Below are positions 25,120 to 29,548 of a stretch of 58,040 nt of DNA, piece after piece (position 1 is the first letter of the stretch; every line of letters begins with the position of its first letter). A program made the translations under genes and the position numbers. The stretch is from a bacterium (lineage in GTDB: Bacteria > Auribacterota > UBA6266), in NCBI GenBank assembly GCA_028717725.1, contig JAQUNG010000001.1:1-58040 (forward strand), read 5' to 3'. Under the pieces are notes generated by a model, which searched no databases, was not told where the DNA came from, and worked only from the letters and a program-made list of their open reading frames with translations.

Positions 25120-26412
25120 ATGAGTTCAAAACTGGCGATTTCAGGCGGCAGAAAAGTGAGAGAAAAACCCTTTGTTACCGTTCCGCGTATCGGCGAAGAA
25201 GAGAAAAAACATGTTATTGACGTTCTGGACAAAGGTATATTGTCGGGTTTTGTCGCCGGCCCGGGAGAAGCTTTTTACGGTGGAAACAAAGTAAAAGAGC
25301 TTGAAGGGAAGTTCAGGGATTACTTTAATGTGAAACAGGCTATAGCTGTCAACTCCGCCACGGCAGGGTTGCATGCGGCTATTGCGGCAGTCGGGATTGG
25401 TCCCGGAGACGAGGTTATAGTTACGCCATATACTATGTCGGCATCCGCGACGGCTATACTTATGCAGAACGGAATACCTGTTTTTGCCGATATAGATGAG
25501 AAAACTTTTTGTGTGGATCCCTGCGAAGTAGAGAAGAAAATAACTTCCAGAACGAAAGCGATAATAGCGGTGCACCTGTTCGGGCAATCCGCGGATATGG
25601 ATAAAATAATGGGTATCGCAAGAAAACACAAGCTTTTCGTCATTGAAGATTGCGCCCAGGCTCCCGCCGCGAAATACAAAGAGAAATATATCGGGACTAT
25701 TGGCGACATAGGTATTTTCAGTCTCAACCAGCATAAGATTATCACGTGCGGAGAAGGAGGGGTTGCCGTTACAAATAACGATGAACTGGCTCTTAATATA
25801 CGGCTTGTCCGGAATCACGGGGAAGTTATCATTGACAAAATGGAATTTAAGAACCAGCCGGTTATCCTGGGGTGGAACTACAGGATGACCGAACTTGAAG
25901 CTGCTGTTTCAATCGGACAGTTCTCAAGACTGGATGCTCTTACCGAGGAAAGAAGGCATCTGGCGGAATATCTGACATCGAAAATAAAAGGTATTGAAGG
26001 TATCGTTCCTCCTTTTGCGCCTGACTGTAACGAACATGTGTATTTTGTCTATCCTGTTAAATTAGATGCAAATAAATTAAAGATAAAAAGAGATGTTTTT
26101 GCCGCGGCTTTAAAAGCCGAAGGCATACCCTGCGCAACAGGTTATGTCCGCCCGATATATCTTGAGCCGACATATAGAAATCTTAAAGGGTACGGCAATG
26201 CCGGTTGTCCGTATAAATGCCCTTTTTACGACGGGGAAATATCTTATAATTCCGGCGATTGTCCTGTTTGCGAAAGAATGCATTTTAACGAATTGATTGT
26301 ATTGCCCGTGTGCAGGTCTCCGCAAACGGAAAGAGACATGGATGATGTCGCGGAAGCCGTCATAAAAATTGCAAATAATATTGATGAGATAAAGGAGAAA
26401 ACGGAAATATGA
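25120..26412 (+). CDS. DegT/DnrJ/EryC1/StrS-family PLP-dependent sugar aminotransferase (second copy)
   Basis: 430 aa. PLP-Lys context FSLNQHKIITCGEGG. GGAGGAG SD. Confidence 0.85.
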   Translation: MSSKLAISGGRKVREKPFVTVPRIGEEEKKHVIDVLDKGILSGFVAGPGEAFYGGNKVKELEGKFRDYFNVKQAIAVNSATAGLHAAIAAVGIGPGDEVIVTPYTMSASATAILMQNGIPVFADIDEKTFCVDPCEVEKKITSRTKAIIAVHLFGQSADMDKIMGIARKHKLFVIEDCAQAPAAKYKEKYIGTIGDIGIFSLNQHKIITCGEGGVAVTNNDELALNIRLVRNHGEVIIDKMEFKNQPVILGWNYRMTELEAAVSIGQFSRLDALTEERRHLAEYLTSKIKGIEGIVPPFAPDCNEHVYFVYPVKLDANKLKIKRDVFAAALKAEGIPCATGYVRPIYLEPTYRNLKGYGNAGCPYKCPFYDGEISYNSGDCPVCERMHFNELIVLPVCRSPQTERDMDDVAEAVIKIANNIDEIKEKTEI

Positions 26413-27050
26413 AGCGCGAGAAAAAATGGGTTCCGCCGGGCAAAAACTGCGGCTTGTGCGGAGTAAAGACCTGCGGAGAATTCTTAACCCTTATAAGAAA
26501 AGGCAAAAAAATACCTGAAGATTGTGTATTTTTTGTGAAAGATAGGGGGCCTGTTTGCGTGGTGGCGAAGAATAAAAAAGCAAACATTAAAAAAACGGAT
26601 ATTCTGGGAAATAAATTTGATTTTATTTTAGATCCTCTTCCGGGGGAAGTCTCCGCCAGAAAGATTGTATTGCCTTTCAGGCCTGATATTGTCGAGAGAT
26701 GGAAGATAAAGAAGGGCGATATTGTAGTTGGCCGCCCTGAGGGGGCGGGATGTCCCGTCCAACATGTTTTGCAGGTTATTAAAGCCAACAGAACCACGGG
26801 AGTTCTTGATACATGGTGTGTAGGCCCGCGGTATTCAAGAGATGCCAAGGTGTTTGATGTAGAAGCTTATCATATGATAGCTTTCGAGGGGATTGCCGAA
26901 GTCGTGAGAAAAGAACCTCAATTCGGGAGAAGGCAGTATTTTCTGCCGGGTTTCTGTATGATGAATATGGCTCATACCGGTGTCGTTAATATGGTTATAA
27001 AAAAGCCCGCCGGTCTGCAAATCAGGGTAGAAGACATAAGATTTTTATAG
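26409..27050 (+). CDS. Protein with N-terminal putative Fe-S cluster-binding domain; remainder unassigned
   Basis: PGKNCGLCGVKTCGEF resembles the Cys motif at the N-terminus of RnfB-type proteins. ATGA overlap upstream. Confidence 0.45.
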   Translation: MKREKKWVPPGKNCGLCGVKTCGEFLTLIRKGKKIPEDCVFFVKDRGPVCVVAKNKKANIKKTDILGNKFDFILDPLPGEVSARKIVLPFRPDIVERWKIKKGDIVVGRPEGAGCPVQHVLQVIKANRTTGVLDTWCVGPRYSRDAKVFDVEAYHMIAFEGIAEVVRKEPQFGRRQYFLPGFCMMNMAHTGVVNMVIKKPAGLQIRVEDIRFL

Positions 27051-27067
27051 ACCAAAGGAGATAAAAA

Positions 27068-28063: not shown

Positions 28064-28818
28064 ACATAAAAAAGCTTACGGTATTTTCCGGTGTAGATAA
28101 AACCGGGGATGCTGAAAGATTTAAAAAATTTGAGATATTTCCGGGTAACACTGCTGCGATAGTCGGTCCGACGGGCAGCGGAAAAACATCTTTAGTTACA
28201 GATATAGAGATGCTTGCTCAGAGGGATACGGTTACCCGCAGGAAGATACTGATAAATGATAAGATTCCTCCTTTTTCTTACAGACAGGACCCGTCAAAAA
28301 ACCCTATAGTTCTTATCACACAGCATACGAATTTTCTTGCTGATTTGAGAGTTGATGATTTCCTCAGGCTGCATGCTTTGTCGAGACAAATGAAATCGAG
28401 GGGAACTGTTCCCAAGACCCTCATGCTTGCCAACAAACTTACCGGTGAAAAAGTTACCGAAAACATGAAAATGACAGTGCTGTCAGGCGGGCAGACCAGG
28501 GCGCTTATGATTGCGGATTCCATTATTATAGGCAATGCCCCGATCGTCCTGCTTGACGAGATAGAAAATGCCGGTATCTTCAAGAAAGAAGCGATGGCAA
28601 TGGTAAAGGAAGAGGGCAAAATAATCCTTTTTGTGACGCACGATCCGGTAGTCGCTCTTCTCTGTGATATAAGGCTGGTGATGAAAAATGGCGGTATCGC
28701 GAAGATATTGAGGACAAACGAGCGAGAAAAGAAAGCAAGAAAAAAGATTATCGAGCAGGACATAATGATAAGCGTTATAAGGGAACGTGTCCGGCGCGGC
28801 GAGATAATAAAATTCTAA
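28060..28818 (+). CDS. Orphan ABC-type ATPase (no cognate permease in window)
   Basis: Walker A GPTGSGKTS, signature LSGGQ, Walker B VLLDE, H-loop THD. TTGA overlap upstream. Confidence 0.75.
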   Translation: MNIKKLTVFSGVDKTGDAERFKKFEIFPGNTAAIVGPTGSGKTSLVTDIEMLAQRDTVTRRKILINDKIPPFSYRQDPSKNPIVLITQHTNFLADLRVDDFLRLHALSRQMKSRGTVPKTLMLANKLTGEKVTENMKMTVLSGGQTRALMIADSIIIGNAPIVLLDEIENAGIFKKEAMAMVKEEGKIILFVTHDPVVALLCDIRLVMKNGGIAKILRTNEREKKARKKIIEQDIMISVIRERVRRGEIIKF

Positions 28819-28834
28819 ATAAGGAGATTAAAAA

Positions 28835-29548
28835 TTGAAACTGATGATATTGGCGGGGCCTCCTTCCGCGGGAAAAACATCCGTTGTAAAGAATATAATG
28901 AGGCGGCTTTATCCGAAAGTCAAAATATCTTTTTTAAAGATCGATGTGGTTGTTACTTTTGAAAAAGAGGAAATAGGAAAAGATTTTCCGGGTATACCGG
29001 TAAAAATTGTCTATTCGGGAGACCTGTGTCCCGACCACGCAGGTGTGATGGTTATGAAAGACGGTATAGAATGGGCTGAGAAGAACAAAAGCGAACTCCT
29101 GATTGTGGAAAGCGCCGGGCTTTGCCTGAGATGTTCGCCTTATCTCAATCAGGGATTAGGCATAGTTGTTTTAAGTATGCTCGGTGGCATGAACTCCCCG
29201 CTTAAAATGGGTCCCATGGTCGGCTTGGCCGATATTGCGGTTGTTACAAAAATCGACTTGATAAGCCAGGCCGAAAGGGAAGTGTTCAGACAGAAAGTCC
29301 ACGAGGTCAATAATTCGATAAGGTTATATGAAGTCAATGCCCTTCAGGGGACGGGAATTGACAGGTTATTGGTTGAATTGAAAGATATGAAAGATATAAA
29401 ACCCGAAAGCCTTGTCCTTAAGGGTGTTCCCCCGTTGGGAGTATGCACTATTTGCATAGGCAAGAAAGATATCGGATGGCAGAACCATTTCGGCGTTATC
29501 AGGAAGCTTGACACACAGGGCGCTGATTATCTGTACAGGGGAGAATAA
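28835..29548 (+). CDS. G3E-family P-loop GTPase (HypB/UreG/CobW/MeaB-like metallochaperone type)
   Basis: Walker A GPPSAGKTS, ESAGLC segment, VVTKIDL (NKxD-like). C-terminal CxxC (GVCTIC). TTG start with an AAGGAG SD. Confidence 0.6.
   Translation: MKLMILAGPPSAGKTSVVKNIMRRLYPKVKISFLKIDVVVTFEKEEIGKDFPGIPVKIVYSGDLCPDHAGVMVMKDGIEWAEKNKSELLIVESAGLCLRCSPYLNQGLGIVVLSMLGGMNSPLKMGPMVGLADIAVVTKIDLISQAEREVFRQKVHEVNNSIRLYEVNALQGTGIDRLLVELKDMKDIKPESLVLKGVPPLGVCTICIGKKDIGWQNHFGVIRKLDTQGADYLYRGE

What the first reader, a model, noticed from the sequence alone, without database searches (positions are those of the whole stretch)
26409..29548. Fe-S-domain protein, SDR, transporter-less ABC ATPase and G3E GTPase inserted between pseH and pseG
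These four coupled genes have no role in canonical Pse synthesis:
- a 213-aa protein with an RnfB-like N-terminal Cys motif (NCGLCGVKTCGEF);
- an extended SDR;
- an ABC ATPase with all motifs but no permease;
- a HypB/UreG/CobW/MeaB-type GTPase.

G3E GTPases and soluble ABC ATPases normally deliver metals or cofactors or remodel complexes. Their presence in a nucleotide-sugar operon suggests an undescribed metallo- or cofactor-dependent modification step with its own maturation machinery. The two B12-radical SAM enzymes in the window are conceivable clients.
Basis: partly seen in the sequence, partly recalled or inferred. Interest (0 to 1): 0.7.

Follow-up and report, generated by a model that had tools for sequence, protein, structure and literature searches.

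The report
Orphan ATPase–GTPase–FeS module in sugar operon
Four tightly linked genes in a cell-surface sugar operon are a new version of a widespread three-protein module of unknown function that otherwise sits next to enzymes building carbon–sulfur bonds, such as those making the methane cofactor coenzyme M.

Summary
Four coupled + strand genes (26409-29548) encode a PF04060 Fe-S protein, an extended SDR, a permease-less ABC ATPase and a G3E GTPase, inside a pseudaminic-acid-type operon.

The ATPase, GTPase and Fe-S protein form a strictly conserved unit. In nearly all of 80 species loci they are adjacent, in the order ABC, GTPase, Fe-S. In Methanomicrobiales the trio heads coenzyme M operons (Mmp16/ComF, cysteate synthase, ComDE). 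In a third of the Firmicutes loci ComA lies within 10 kb, usually as ComA-(ComB)-trio.

One paper (PLoS Genet 2025) notes the archaeal trio and says its "role remains unknown".

The window carries a monophyletic variant, Fe-S, SDR, ABC, GTPase. Its SDR family is very small and was seen only in this cassette, always in nonulosonic-acid clusters (Auribacterota, Syntrophales, Syntrophorhabdus).

My best inference, at low to moderate confidence, is that the trio is a self-contained, nucleotide-driven metallo-Fe-S enzyme. It would supply an inorganic sulfur species (sulfite is favoured) to C-S bond-forming partners, here the SDR. That predicts a sulfur-bearing sugar.

The function has not been tested.

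The parts
26409..27050 (+). COG2000-type Fe-S protein, 213 aa. It has an N-terminal PF04060 four-Cys domain (C14, C17, C22, C39), a disordered linker (about residues 46-59) and an all-beta C-terminal domain. The C-domain carries invariant C115, H119, C183, H189 and many invariant Arg/Lys.
   Evidence: Pfam 35.6 bits. 624 homologue clusters at 55-97% identity across bacteria and archaea. Invariant columns. AF2 pLDDT 85.7. No PDB fold match with E<0.1. The C-domain has no Pfam hit even at E 0.1.
27068..28063 (+). Cassette-specific extended SDR, 331 aa, resembling NDP-sugar 4-epimerases. It has GAAGYxG, a Y156-x3-K160 motif, and Trp132 at the canonical catalytic Ser/Thr position (Ser131 lies one residue earlier). 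It also has a family-specific insertion, HLAEEKEKK..YSE.
   Evidence: Pfam and NCBIfam. A tight family of about 25 clusters at 52-94% identity, with the next hit at only 30%. Every context examined lies inside the cassette. Alignment. AF2 and Foldseek top hits are GalE, UDP-GlcA and UDP-GlcNAc 4-epimerases.
28060..28818 (+). Soluble ABC-type ATPase, 252 aa, a single nucleotide-binding domain with no transmembrane partner.
   Evidence: PF00005. Walker A, Q-loop, LSGGQ, Walker B-Glu and H-loop are at least 95% conserved in 69 orthologues. Always adjacent to the GTPase. No permease among the conserved neighbours. The cassette clade is monophyletic.
28835..29548 (+). G3E-family GTPase, 237 aa, a distant relative of HypB and UreG. 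Invariant features are the P-loop, CPDH (C65, H68), ESAGLCLRC (C97, C100), a TKID G4-type motif (T138 and D141 invariant) and a C-terminal C204-x2-C207...H218 motif.
   Evidence: PF02492. TIGR00073 HypB scores 57 bits, below its cut-off of 121. Best PDB hits are HypB and UreG at E 8e-6 to 9e-3. Conservation in 66 orthologues. The cassette clade is monophyletic.
18714..20869 (+). Context: genuine PseB (18714-19700) and PseC (19712-20869), which start the pseudaminic-acid-type pathway.
   Evidence: TIGR03589 at 503 bits (cut-off 408) and TIGR03588 at 500 bits (cut-off 424).
22754..26412 (+). Context upstream of the cassette: cytidylyltransferase, PseH-like GNAT, GFO/IDH/MocA oxidoreductase and a second DegT aminotransferase.
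   Evidence: The GFO + DegT + CTP_transf_3 set also recurs in cassette loci L090 and L091.
29508..31593 (+). Context downstream: PseG-like hydrolase (likely start at 29551) and NeuB/PseI-type nonulosonate synthase (30577-31593).
   Evidence: TIGR03590 at 90 bits, below its cut-off. PF03102 at 264 bits. TIGR03569 at 314 bits and TIGR03586 at 291 bits, both below their cut-offs.

Best explanation
Shown:
- The ABC ATPase, G3E GTPase and COG2000-type Fe-S protein are one conserved, self-contained three-protein module.
- In this window the module occurs as a monophyletic variant. A dedicated epimerase-like SDR has been inserted and the Fe-S gene moved to the front.
- This four-gene cassette travels between nonulosonic-acid clusters of Auribacterota and Thermodesulfobacteriota.

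Inferred:
- The Fe-S protein is the catalytic or redox subunit. It carries a low-potential [4Fe-4S] domain and a Cys2His2 metal site in a C-terminal domain with no recognisable relative.
- The GTPase is its metallochaperone.
- The ABC ATPase couples ATP hydrolysis to an unfavourable step or to a conformational hand-over.

Inferred from context:
- Outside this cassette, every conserved partner enzyme forms a C-S bond. ComA and cysteate synthase add sulfite. Mmp16/ComF makes a thiol.
- The module therefore most likely makes or delivers an activated inorganic sulfur species. Sulfite is favoured and a sulfide or persulfide donor is possible.
- In this window the cassette SDR would generate a keto or enone sugar intermediate that captures that sulfur. 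The product would be a sulfur-bearing (sulfonated or thiolated) pseudaminic-acid-type sugar for the LPS or surface glycan.
For: Unit conservation: ABC, GTPase and Fe-S are adjacent on one strand in essentially all 80 species loci. The proteins are 43-69% identical between bacteria and archaea.

Context:
- 35 of 40 archaeal loci have Mmp16, cysteate synthase and/or ComDE directly downstream. The other 5 contigs end within about 1.1 kb. Family assignments pass NCBIfam cut-offs.
- L013 has trio-Mmp16-ComA-ComB-ComC-ComDE in one run.
- In L012, L074 and L087 cysteate synthase is the first CoM gene after the trio, with no Mmp16 detected between them.
- 12 of 36 Firmicutes loci have ComA within 10 kb. 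Eight have it directly upstream, as ComA-(ComB)-ABC-GTPase-FeS. No Mmp16, cysteate synthase or ComDE was found within 10 kb of any Firmicutes locus. The shared requirement there is the sulfite-dependent step.
- In B. subtilis the ComB/ComA homologues yitCD lie beside yitBA-yisZ, which are inferred to serve phosphosulfolactate synthesis (PMC517825). By my own knowledge these are sulfate-activation and reduction paralogues. The trio occupies the equivalent position in anaerobes.
- The source of sulfite for CoM is an acknowledged gap (PMC6286981).

Cassette:
- The SDR family is tiny and was found only inside Fe-S-SDR-ABC-GTPase.
- The SDR/ABC 4-nt overlap is conserved.
- The cassette ABC and GTPase each form a monophyletic clade.

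Protein features:
- Four Cys of PF04060, plus invariant C115, H119, C183, H189 and R84, K85, R91, R109, R144, R175.
- GTPase CPDH, ESAGLC and CxxC..H motifs, and complete ABC motifs.

Literature: the archaeal trio is noted as colocalised with CoM genes, 'putative role remains unknown' (PMC12068725).
Against: - No component resembles a known sulfur-handling enzyme such as sulfite reductase, APS reductase, rhodanese or cysteine desulfurase. Oxidising sulfide to sulfite is a six-electron reaction, normally done with sirohaem.
- 24 of 36 Firmicutes trio loci have no ComA within 10 kb. Examples are Heliobacterium, Pelotomaculum propionicicum and Phosphitispora.
- The SDR lacks the signature of sulfite-adding SDRs. 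NF041015 scores 35 bits against a cut-off of 575. It has no Glu equivalent to Agl3 Glu147 and no dehydratase Asp/Glu pair. SQD1 is absent from the top 50 Foldseek hits.
- I know of no sulfur-containing nonulosonic acid.
- A PF04060 cluster fits plain electron transfer equally well.
- Everything functional here rests on gene neighbourhood. The 80 loci are the closest relatives only.
Confidence: 0.4

Rival explanations
1. The trio is a nucleotide-driven, low-potential electron donor, in the spirit of the ATP-dependent activators of corrinoid proteins or methyl-CoM reductase. It would feed electrons to a difficult reductive step: ComF-type aldehyde-to-thiol conversion in CoM operons, and a reductive sugar modification such as deoxygenation with the SDR here.
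For: - The PF04060 domain is the one found at the N-terminus of the corrinoid/Fe-S protein large subunit.
- ATPase and GTPase partners are present.
- 32 of 40 archaeal loci place the trio next to Mmp16, whose reaction needs 2-4 electrons (PMC11844431).
Against: - ComA and ComB need no reductant, yet they form ComA-ComB-trio operons in Firmicutes with no Mmp16 nearby.
- Three archaeal loci have no Mmp16 between the trio and cysteate synthase.
- Mmp16 carries its own ferredoxin domain.
Confidence: 0.2
2. The GTPase and ABC ATPase are maturation machinery that loads a metal or cofactor into a separate client enzyme of the sugar pathway, for example the B12-radical SAM enzymes in the window.
For: - G3E GTPases are metallochaperones, and metal-binding Cys/His motifs are invariant here.
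- B12-rSAM genes lie at 16774-18282 and 46632-48026.
- B12-rSAM genes are also present in L005 and L091.
Against: - No B12-rSAM lies within 10 kb in 5 of 7 cassette loci.
- Among the roughly 70 non-cassette trio loci, a relative of the window's B12-rSAM appeared within 10 kb in only three, on the opposite strand.
- The only constant partner of the two NTPases is the Fe-S protein.
- The variable neighbours (ComA, PLP-dependent cysteate synthase, NAD-dependent SDR) share no metallocofactor.
Confidence: 0.05
3. The cassette is functionally unrelated to the sugar pathway. It would be a housekeeping or regulatory module that merely hitch-hikes in the operon, or the ABC ATPase would energise a permease encoded elsewhere.
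For: In many Firmicutes the trio stands alone among unrelated genes.
Against: - The cassette form, with its private SDR, was found only in nonulosonic-acid clusters. Its internal order is fixed while its position within the clusters varies.
- Its genes are translationally coupled to the sugar genes.
- No permease family is conserved near any of the 80 loci.
Confidence: 0.05

Closest known systems
ATPase / 'Ni2+-binding GTPase' / COG2000 Fe-S protein trio colocalised with coenzyme M biosynthesis genes in methanogens (figure legend in PLoS Genet 2025;21:e1011695, PMC12068725)
   Same: The same three protein families, 43-69% identical, adjacent and co-directional. The Methanomicrobiales loci retrieved here show exactly that arrangement next to Mmp16, cysteate synthase and ComDE.
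   Different: In the window the gene order is Fe-S first, a dedicated SDR is inserted, and the context is a pseudaminic-acid-type operon in a PVC-group bacterium with no CoM genes. The published trio itself has no assigned function.
HypB/UreG-type G3E metallochaperone GTPases
   Same: P-loop, ESAGL Walker B, TKID specificity motif, and a Cys-Pro-(Asp)-His plus Cys metal-site pattern in the G domain.
   Different: It scores 57 bits against the HypB equivalog cut-off of 121. It has an extra invariant C-terminal CxxC..H motif. No hydrogenase or urease genes are nearby. Its partners are an ABC ATPase and a COG2000 protein.
N-terminal [4Fe-4S] domain of the corrinoid/Fe-S protein large subunit (AcsC/CdhE) and of RnfB (Pfam PF04060)
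   Same: The same four-Cys domain. The best PDB sequence hits are CFeSP large subunits, over residues 9-53 only.
   Different: The remaining roughly 150 residues form an all-beta domain with no Pfam or PDB fold match. There is no TIM-barrel or corrinoid domain, and none of RnfB's ferredoxin modules.
UDP-sulfoquinovose synthase (SQD1/Agl3), an extended SDR that adds sulfite to a sugar enone
   Same: Extended SDR fold. The H-x-x-E-x-(K/R)...Y-S segment aligns with SQD1 H95...R101, a residue essential in Agl3. It is a precedent for an SDR that needs a sulfite donor.
   Different: The similarity is only generic: hhalign gives 24% identity, and NF041015 scores 35 bits against a cut-off of 575. The dehydration Glu is absent. 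The nearest structures are 4-epimerases. It is not a member.
B. subtilis yitCD + yitBA-yisZ sporulation genes for sulfolactate
   Same: ComB/ComA homologues sit beside genes thought to supply their sulfur substrate (PMC517825). In anaerobic Firmicutes the trio occupies that position next to ComA-ComB.
   Different: The proteins are not homologous. The identities of yitB, yitA and yisZ (PAPS/APS reductase, sulfurylase, APS kinase paralogues) come from my own knowledge and were not tested here.

Membership tests
CoM-associated ATPase/GTPase/COG2000 Fe-S trio (PMC12068725) | Three adjacent co-directional genes: a single-NBD ABC ATPase, a G3E GTPase and a PF04060 Fe-S protein of about 205-220 aa | tested here: met
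   All three are present in the window and orthologous to the archaeal genes at 43-69% identity. They are interrupted only by the SDR.
CoM-associated ATPase/GTPase/COG2000 Fe-S trio (PMC12068725) | Colocalisation with coenzyme M biosynthesis genes | tested here: not met
   No ComA, ComB, ComC, ComDE, cysteate synthase or Mmp16 family hit in the 44 window ORFs scanned. The five ORFs at 9866-16777 and the ORF at 55213-55974 were not scanned. The context is a Pse-type operon.
G3E GTPases (HypB/UreG/CobW/MeaB) | P-loop GxxxxGK(T/S), ExxG Walker B, (N/T)KxD, and a Cys/His metal-binding motif | tested here: met
   GPPSAGKT, ESAGL, TKID, CPDH and C97/C100 are invariant in 66 orthologues, except K139, which falls below the 95% threshold. 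PF02492 scores 39 bits against a cut-off of 20.7.
HypB proper (TIGR00073 equivalog) | Score above the curated equivalog cut-off | tested here: not met
   57.2 bits against a cut-off of 121.2.
ABC transporter ATPase subunit | Nucleotide-binding-domain motifs | tested here: met
   Walker A, Q-loop, LSGGQ, Walker B-E and H-loop are conserved. PF00005 scores 53.5 bits.
ABC transporter ATPase subunit | A cognate permease or substrate-binding protein encoded alongside | tested here: not met
   No permease family appears among the conserved neighbours of 80 loci. There is none adjacent in the window.
RnfB | PF04060 domain plus an N-terminal membrane anchor and C-terminal ferredoxin-type domains | tested here: not met
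   Only PF04060 is found. The C-terminal 150 aa have no Fer4 or any other Pfam hit.
Extended SDR (NDP-sugar epimerase/dehydratase superfamily) | GxxGxxG, YxxxK and the two-domain fold | tested here: met
   GAAGYLG and Y156-x3-K160. PF01370 at 109 bits. Foldseek TM about 0.8 to GalE-type enzymes.
Extended SDR (NDP-sugar epimerase/dehydratase superfamily) | Catalytic Ser/Thr four residues before the conserved Tyr of the xVYG strand | tested here: inconclusive
   That position is Trp132 and Ser131 lies one residue earlier. The pattern holds in the cassette family members aligned but not in the two outgroups.
UDP-sulfoquinovose synthase (SQD1/Agl3) | Family-level sequence score and the dehydration Glu-Tyr (TMGEYG) | tested here: not met
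   NF041015 at 35 bits against a cut-off of 575. The motif is SWAGVY, without Glu. SQD1 is not among the top 50 structural hits.
NDP-sugar 4,6-dehydratase | Asp/Glu acid-base pair after the catalytic Thr (TDE) | tested here: not met
   SWAGVY replaces TDEVY. TIGR01181 scores 84 bits against a cut-off of 365.
Canonical pseudaminic acid pathway (PseB, C, H, G, I, F) | Each enzyme passing its NCBIfam equivalog cut-off | tested here: inconclusive
   PseB and PseC pass. The PseH-, PseG-, PseI- and PseF-like genes fall below their cut-offs. The pathway is Pse-type, but the final sugar is undetermined.

The most novel reading that the evidence does not exclude
The ABC ATPase, G3E GTPase and COG2000 Fe-S trio is the missing enzyme system that makes or hands over sulfite (or another activated sulfur species) for sulfonate biosynthesis in sulfide-dependent anaerobes. 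That would answer where the sulfonate of coenzyme M comes from. Together with its private SDR, the cassette in this window would install sulfur on a pseudaminic-acid-type sugar. The result would be the first sulfonated or thiolated nonulosonic acid.
Probability: 0.25. Interest if true: 0.9.

Novelty: new variant of a known kind. Interest (0 to 1): 0.7.

Why it matters
The trio is compact and highly conserved: about 60% identity between bacteria and archaea, yet only 187 representatives among 1.84 billion proteins. No member has a known function. Its Fe-S subunit has a C-terminal domain with no recognisable structural relative.

In methanogens the trio heads the operon for coenzyme M, the cofactor of methane formation. 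The origin of that cofactor's sulfonate sulfur is still unclear.

Two further contexts now join that one: ComA-ComB operons in Firmicutes, and a four-gene SDR cassette in surface-sugar operons. With three contexts the function can be narrowed by comparison, and bacterial systems become available for testing it.

If the sulfur-supply idea holds, it would close a gap in CoM biosynthesis. It would also predict a new class of sulfur-bearing cell-surface sugars in Auribacterota and syntrophic Thermodesulfobacteriota.

If the idea fails, the module is still a new nucleotide-driven metallo-Fe-S enzyme that needs an assignment.

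Tried and rejected
1. SDR as an SQD1/Agl3-type sulfite-adding synthase. The weak NCBIfam hit (35 bits) led me to verify the SQD1 sequence against 1qrr and run hhalign. The result was only generic SDR similarity. The dehydration Glu is absent and Foldseek prefers 4-epimerases. Rejected as a membership claim and kept only as a mechanistic analogy.
2. Fold assignment of the Fe-S protein. Foldseek against the PDB gave no hit with E<0.1. 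A PDB profile search hit only the PF04060 segment of CFeSP. Pfam on the C-domain alone gave nothing at E 0.1.
3. Rosetta-stone fusions. The longer members of the family among 1.84 billion representatives carry only repeated PF04060 domains or nothing further.
4. B12-radical SAM linkage. It is not conserved.
5. Cys-rich C-terminus of the second DegT aminotransferase as an Fe-S site. It is not conserved in the L090 and L091 orthologues.
6. Promoter and terminator scan of 18-37.5 kb. Counts equal the shuffled expectation, so no internal transcript boundaries can be claimed.
7. Literature. Searches for PF04060 with CobW and ABC, for 'source of sulfite', and for sulfite with ComA, GTPase and Fe-S found no functional study. 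COG2000 appears in one relevant work only. The differential-expression tables held as text for that paper did not contain the locus tags I guessed for genes flanking MA3297-3299. I never established where the M. acetivorans trio genes lie.
8. ComA homologue search, to see whether trio-bearing Firmicutes without an adjacent ComA have one elsewhere. It was not decisive. ComA is far more widespread (3164 clusters) than the trio.

Full report
**1. What is in the sequence**

Region 26409-29548 holds four + strand ORFs exactly as described.
- A 213-aa protein. Residues 10-41 match Pfam PF04060, 'putative Fe-S cluster' (35.6 bits, cut-off 23). The rest matches nothing.
- A 331-aa extended SDR (PF01370, 109 bits).
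- A 252-aa ABC nucleotide-binding domain (PF00005).
- A 237-aa CobW/HypB/UreG-type GTPase (PF02492).

The genes are packed like one translationally coupled unit. The upstream aminotransferase stop overlaps the Fe-S start. The SDR stop overlaps the ABC start by 4 nt. The other two gaps are 16-17 nt and are preceded by GGAG-type ribosome-binding sites. Promoter-like and terminator-like sites in 18-37.5 kb are no more frequent than in shuffled sequence, so no internal boundaries can be claimed.

The surroundings are an LPS and surface-glycan region.
- Kdo transferase, LpxK, a lipid A acyltransferase and a heptosyltransferase lie at 2.4-9.8 kb.
- Genuine PseB and PseC follow; both pass NCBIfam equivalog cut-offs.
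- Next come a cytidylyltransferase, a PseH-like GNAT, a GFO/IDH/MocA oxidoreductase and a second DegT aminotransferase.
- Then the cassette, a PseG-like gene, a NeuB/PseI-type synthase, an ATP-grasp enzyme and glycosyltransferases.

The closest public relative is a UBP3 / Candidatus Auribacterota MAG, with 97% identity for the Fe-S protein.

**2. The trio is a conserved unit**

The Fe-S protein has 624 homologue clusters. They are full-length and 55-67% identical. They come from Auribacterota, Syntrophales, many Peptococcia, Desulfotomaculia, Heliobacteria and Thermincola, and from Methanomicrobiales.

A scan of one genome per GTDB species found 252 species with a relative, and I fetched the 80 best loci. 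Mapping the window's proteins onto all ORFs of these loci showed ABC, GTPase and Fe-S adjacent on one strand in essentially every locus long enough to tell. No permease family is among the conserved neighbours.

The family is small: 187 representatives at E<=0.001 among 1.84 billion proteins. It has no informative domain fusions.

**3. What the trio sits next to**

- **Archaea.** In 35 of 40 archaeal loci the genes immediately downstream are methanogenesis marker 16 (TIGR03287, 496 bits), cysteate synthase (TIGR03844, 652 bits) and/or sulfopyruvate decarboxylase ComDE. The other five contigs end within about 1.1 kb. Mmp16 is the coenzyme M synthase ComF (PMC11844431 / PMC12068725).
- **A complete operon.** One archaeal contig (L013) carries trio-Mmp16-ComA-ComB-ComC-ComDE.
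- **Without Mmp16.** In three loci (L012, L074, L087) cysteate synthase is the first CoM gene after the trio, with no Mmp16 detected between them.
- **Firmicutes.** 12 of 36 loci have phosphosulfolactate synthase ComA (TIGR03849, 335 bits) within 10 kb. Eight have it directly upstream, five of these as ComA-ComB-ABC-GTPase-FeS. No Mmp16, cysteate synthase or ComDE lies within 10 kb of any Firmicutes locus.
- **Standing alone.** In other Firmicutes the trio is surrounded by unrelated genes.

**4. Literature**

The only mention I could find is a figure legend in the Mmp16 paper. [quoted passage not shown] No functional study turned up.

**5. The window's version is a distinct four-gene cassette**

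Here the order is Fe-S, SDR, ABC, GTPase. The SDR belongs to a sharply bounded family of about 25 clusters at 52-94% identity. The next hit drops to 30%.

Every context I examined shows the same four genes in the same order inside a NeuB-containing nonulosonic-acid cluster. These contexts are:
- the window
- L008
- L005, which is the same contig as L009
- L006, which is the same contig as L011
- L007
- L090
- L091
- L092

L010 is cut off after the Fe-S gene. That gives seven independent public loci with the full order, plus the window. The taxa are Auribacterota, Syntrophales or Syntrophaceae, and Syntrophorhabdus, so two phyla.

The cassette's position within the clusters varies. It lies after PseC, after a PseG-like gene, or after the second aminotransferase. 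Its internal order and the SDR/ABC overlap are fixed.

In neighbour-joining trees the cassette ABC and GTPase each form a clade of 7 out of 7. These clades are separate from the archaeal and Firmicutes clades. The cassette therefore arose once and has moved between sugar clusters.

**6. The proteins**

*Fe-S protein.* Invariant residues are C14, C17, C22 and C39 in the PF04060 domain. The best PDB sequence hits for that domain are the N-termini of corrinoid/Fe-S protein large subunits. A second invariant set comprises C115, H119, C183 and H189, plus R84, K85, R91, R109, R144 and R175.

AlphaFold gives a confident model, with pLDDT 85.7 and an all-beta C-domain. It has no PDB fold match with E<0.1.

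*GTPase.* Invariant features are the P-loop, a UreG/HypB-like CPDH motif, ESAGLCLRC, a TKID G4-type motif (T138 and D141 invariant) and an extra C-terminal CxxC..H motif. It is not HypB proper, scoring 57 bits against a cut-off of 121.

*ABC protein.* It keeps every catalytic motif.

*SDR.* It has the NAD motif and YxxxK. It has Trp at the canonical Ser/Thr position and lacks the acid residues of 4,6-dehydratases and of SQD1/Agl3. Its nearest structures are NDP-sugar 4-epimerases. Resemblance to SQD1 is only generic.

**7. Interpretation**

Shown: this is a conserved module. It has no permease and no constant external client. Its partner enzymes change with context.

Inferred:
- The GTPase most likely metallates the Fe-S protein's Cys2His2 site.
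- The ABC ATPase supplies energy or drives a conformational step.

The conserved partners outside this cassette all make C-S bonds. ComA adds sulfite to PEP. Cysteate synthase adds sulfite to phosphoserine. Mmp16 converts an aldehyde to a thiol.

ComA-ComB-trio operons have no Mmp16 nearby, and some archaeal loci have no Mmp16 between the trio and cysteate synthase. The most economical common denominator is therefore supply of the sulfur substrate, with sulfite favoured.

Two published points fit this reading.
- The source of sulfite for CoM in sulfide-grown methanogens is unresolved (PMC6286981).
- In B. subtilis the ComB/ComA homologues yitCD lie beside yitBA-yisZ, which are inferred to serve phosphosulfolactate synthesis (PMC517825). 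The identities of yitB, yitA and yisZ as sulfate-activation and reduction paralogues are my own knowledge.

On this reading the cassette SDR creates a keto or enone sugar that captures the sulfur species. The result would be a sulfur-bearing Pse-type sugar. I put this at about 0.4 overall, and at about 0.25 for the specific sulfite version.

**8. Weaknesses and rivals**

Weaknesses:
- Nothing in the trio resembles a known sulfur enzyme.
- Two thirds of the Firmicutes loci lack a nearby ComA.
- The SDR shows no sulfite-synthase signature.
- All functional evidence is gene neighbourhood among close relatives.

Rivals:
- A nucleotide-driven low-potential electron donor is the main rival (0.2).
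- The B12-radical SAM client idea is weak (0.05). Only 2 of 7 cassette loci have such a gene within 10 kb, and only three of the roughly 70 non-cassette loci showed a relative of the window's B12-rSAM nearby.
- Hitch-hiking, or a distal permease, is unlikely (0.05).

**9. Verdict**

It is wrong about the likely client.

The cassette is a previously unreported variant of a noticed but uncharacterised system. Its link to coenzyme M and sulfolactate genes gives a concrete, testable hypothesis.

Noticed in passing
window 27068-28063 (residues 131-136 and 81-97 of the SDR): The cassette SDR has Trp132 where extended SDRs normally have the catalytic Ser/Thr (four residues before the VY of the strand). 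Ser131 lies one position earlier. A family-specific HLAEEKEKK..YSE insertion is modelled with low confidence. Both features hold in the cassette family members aligned and are absent from the nearest outgroups.
   Followed up: partly
window 25120-26412: The second DegT aminotransferase has a Cys-rich C-terminal stretch (GCPYKCPFYDGEISYNSGDCPVCE). The motif is not conserved in the orthologues of L090 and L091, so it is probably not a general cofactor site. The trio of genes GFO/IDH/MocA + this DegT + a CTP_transf_3 recurs in other cassette-bearing clusters. This suggests an extra amination of the sugar.
   Followed up: partly
window 20876-22732, 33026-34456, 42073-43659, 45615-46205: Four sizeable ORFs inside the glycan operon (618, 476, 528 and 196 aa) have no Pfam family at E<=0.001.
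   Followed up: no
window 35523-36785: A 420-aa protein with an NADPH-dependent FMN reductase domain and a C-terminal part carrying CxxC-type motifs. It has no NCBIfam hit at E<=1e-10. It could be a redox partner in the same operon.
   Followed up: no
window 29508-29551: The PseG-like ORF as listed overlaps the GTPase gene by 41 nt. A TTG at 29551, directly after the GTPase stop and preceded by GGGGAG, is the more likely start.
   Followed up: partly
window 3905-6546: A PTS EIIA domain fused to CBS domains, a CitMHS-family transporter and a second EIIA domain protein sit between the Kdo transferase and LpxK genes of the lipid A/core region.
   Followed up: no
window 137-1153, 16774-18282, 46632-48026: Three radical SAM genes lie in the glycan region: one SPASM-type and two B12-binding. 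The first B12-binding one is nearest to a P-methyltransferase family (276 bits, below its cut-off). The SPASM ORF overlaps the next glycosyltransferase ORF by about 115 nt as listed.
   Followed up: partly
window 1-58040: Every ORF with a family hit is on the + strand across the whole 58 kb. GC skew is positive throughout.
   Followed up: no
L012, L074, L087 (archaeal loci): In these loci cysteate synthase is the first CoM gene after the trio, with no Mmp16/ComF detected in between. This contrasts with the usual trio-Mmp16-cysteate synthase-ComDE order.
   Followed up: partly
L016, L033, L042, L045, L066, L075, L081 (Firmicutes loci): A conserved 132-155-aa ORF with no Pfam hit precedes ComA-(ComB)-trio. 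GerA-type spore germination receptor genes lie divergently upstream. This fits a sporulation-related sulfolactate operon.
   Followed up: no
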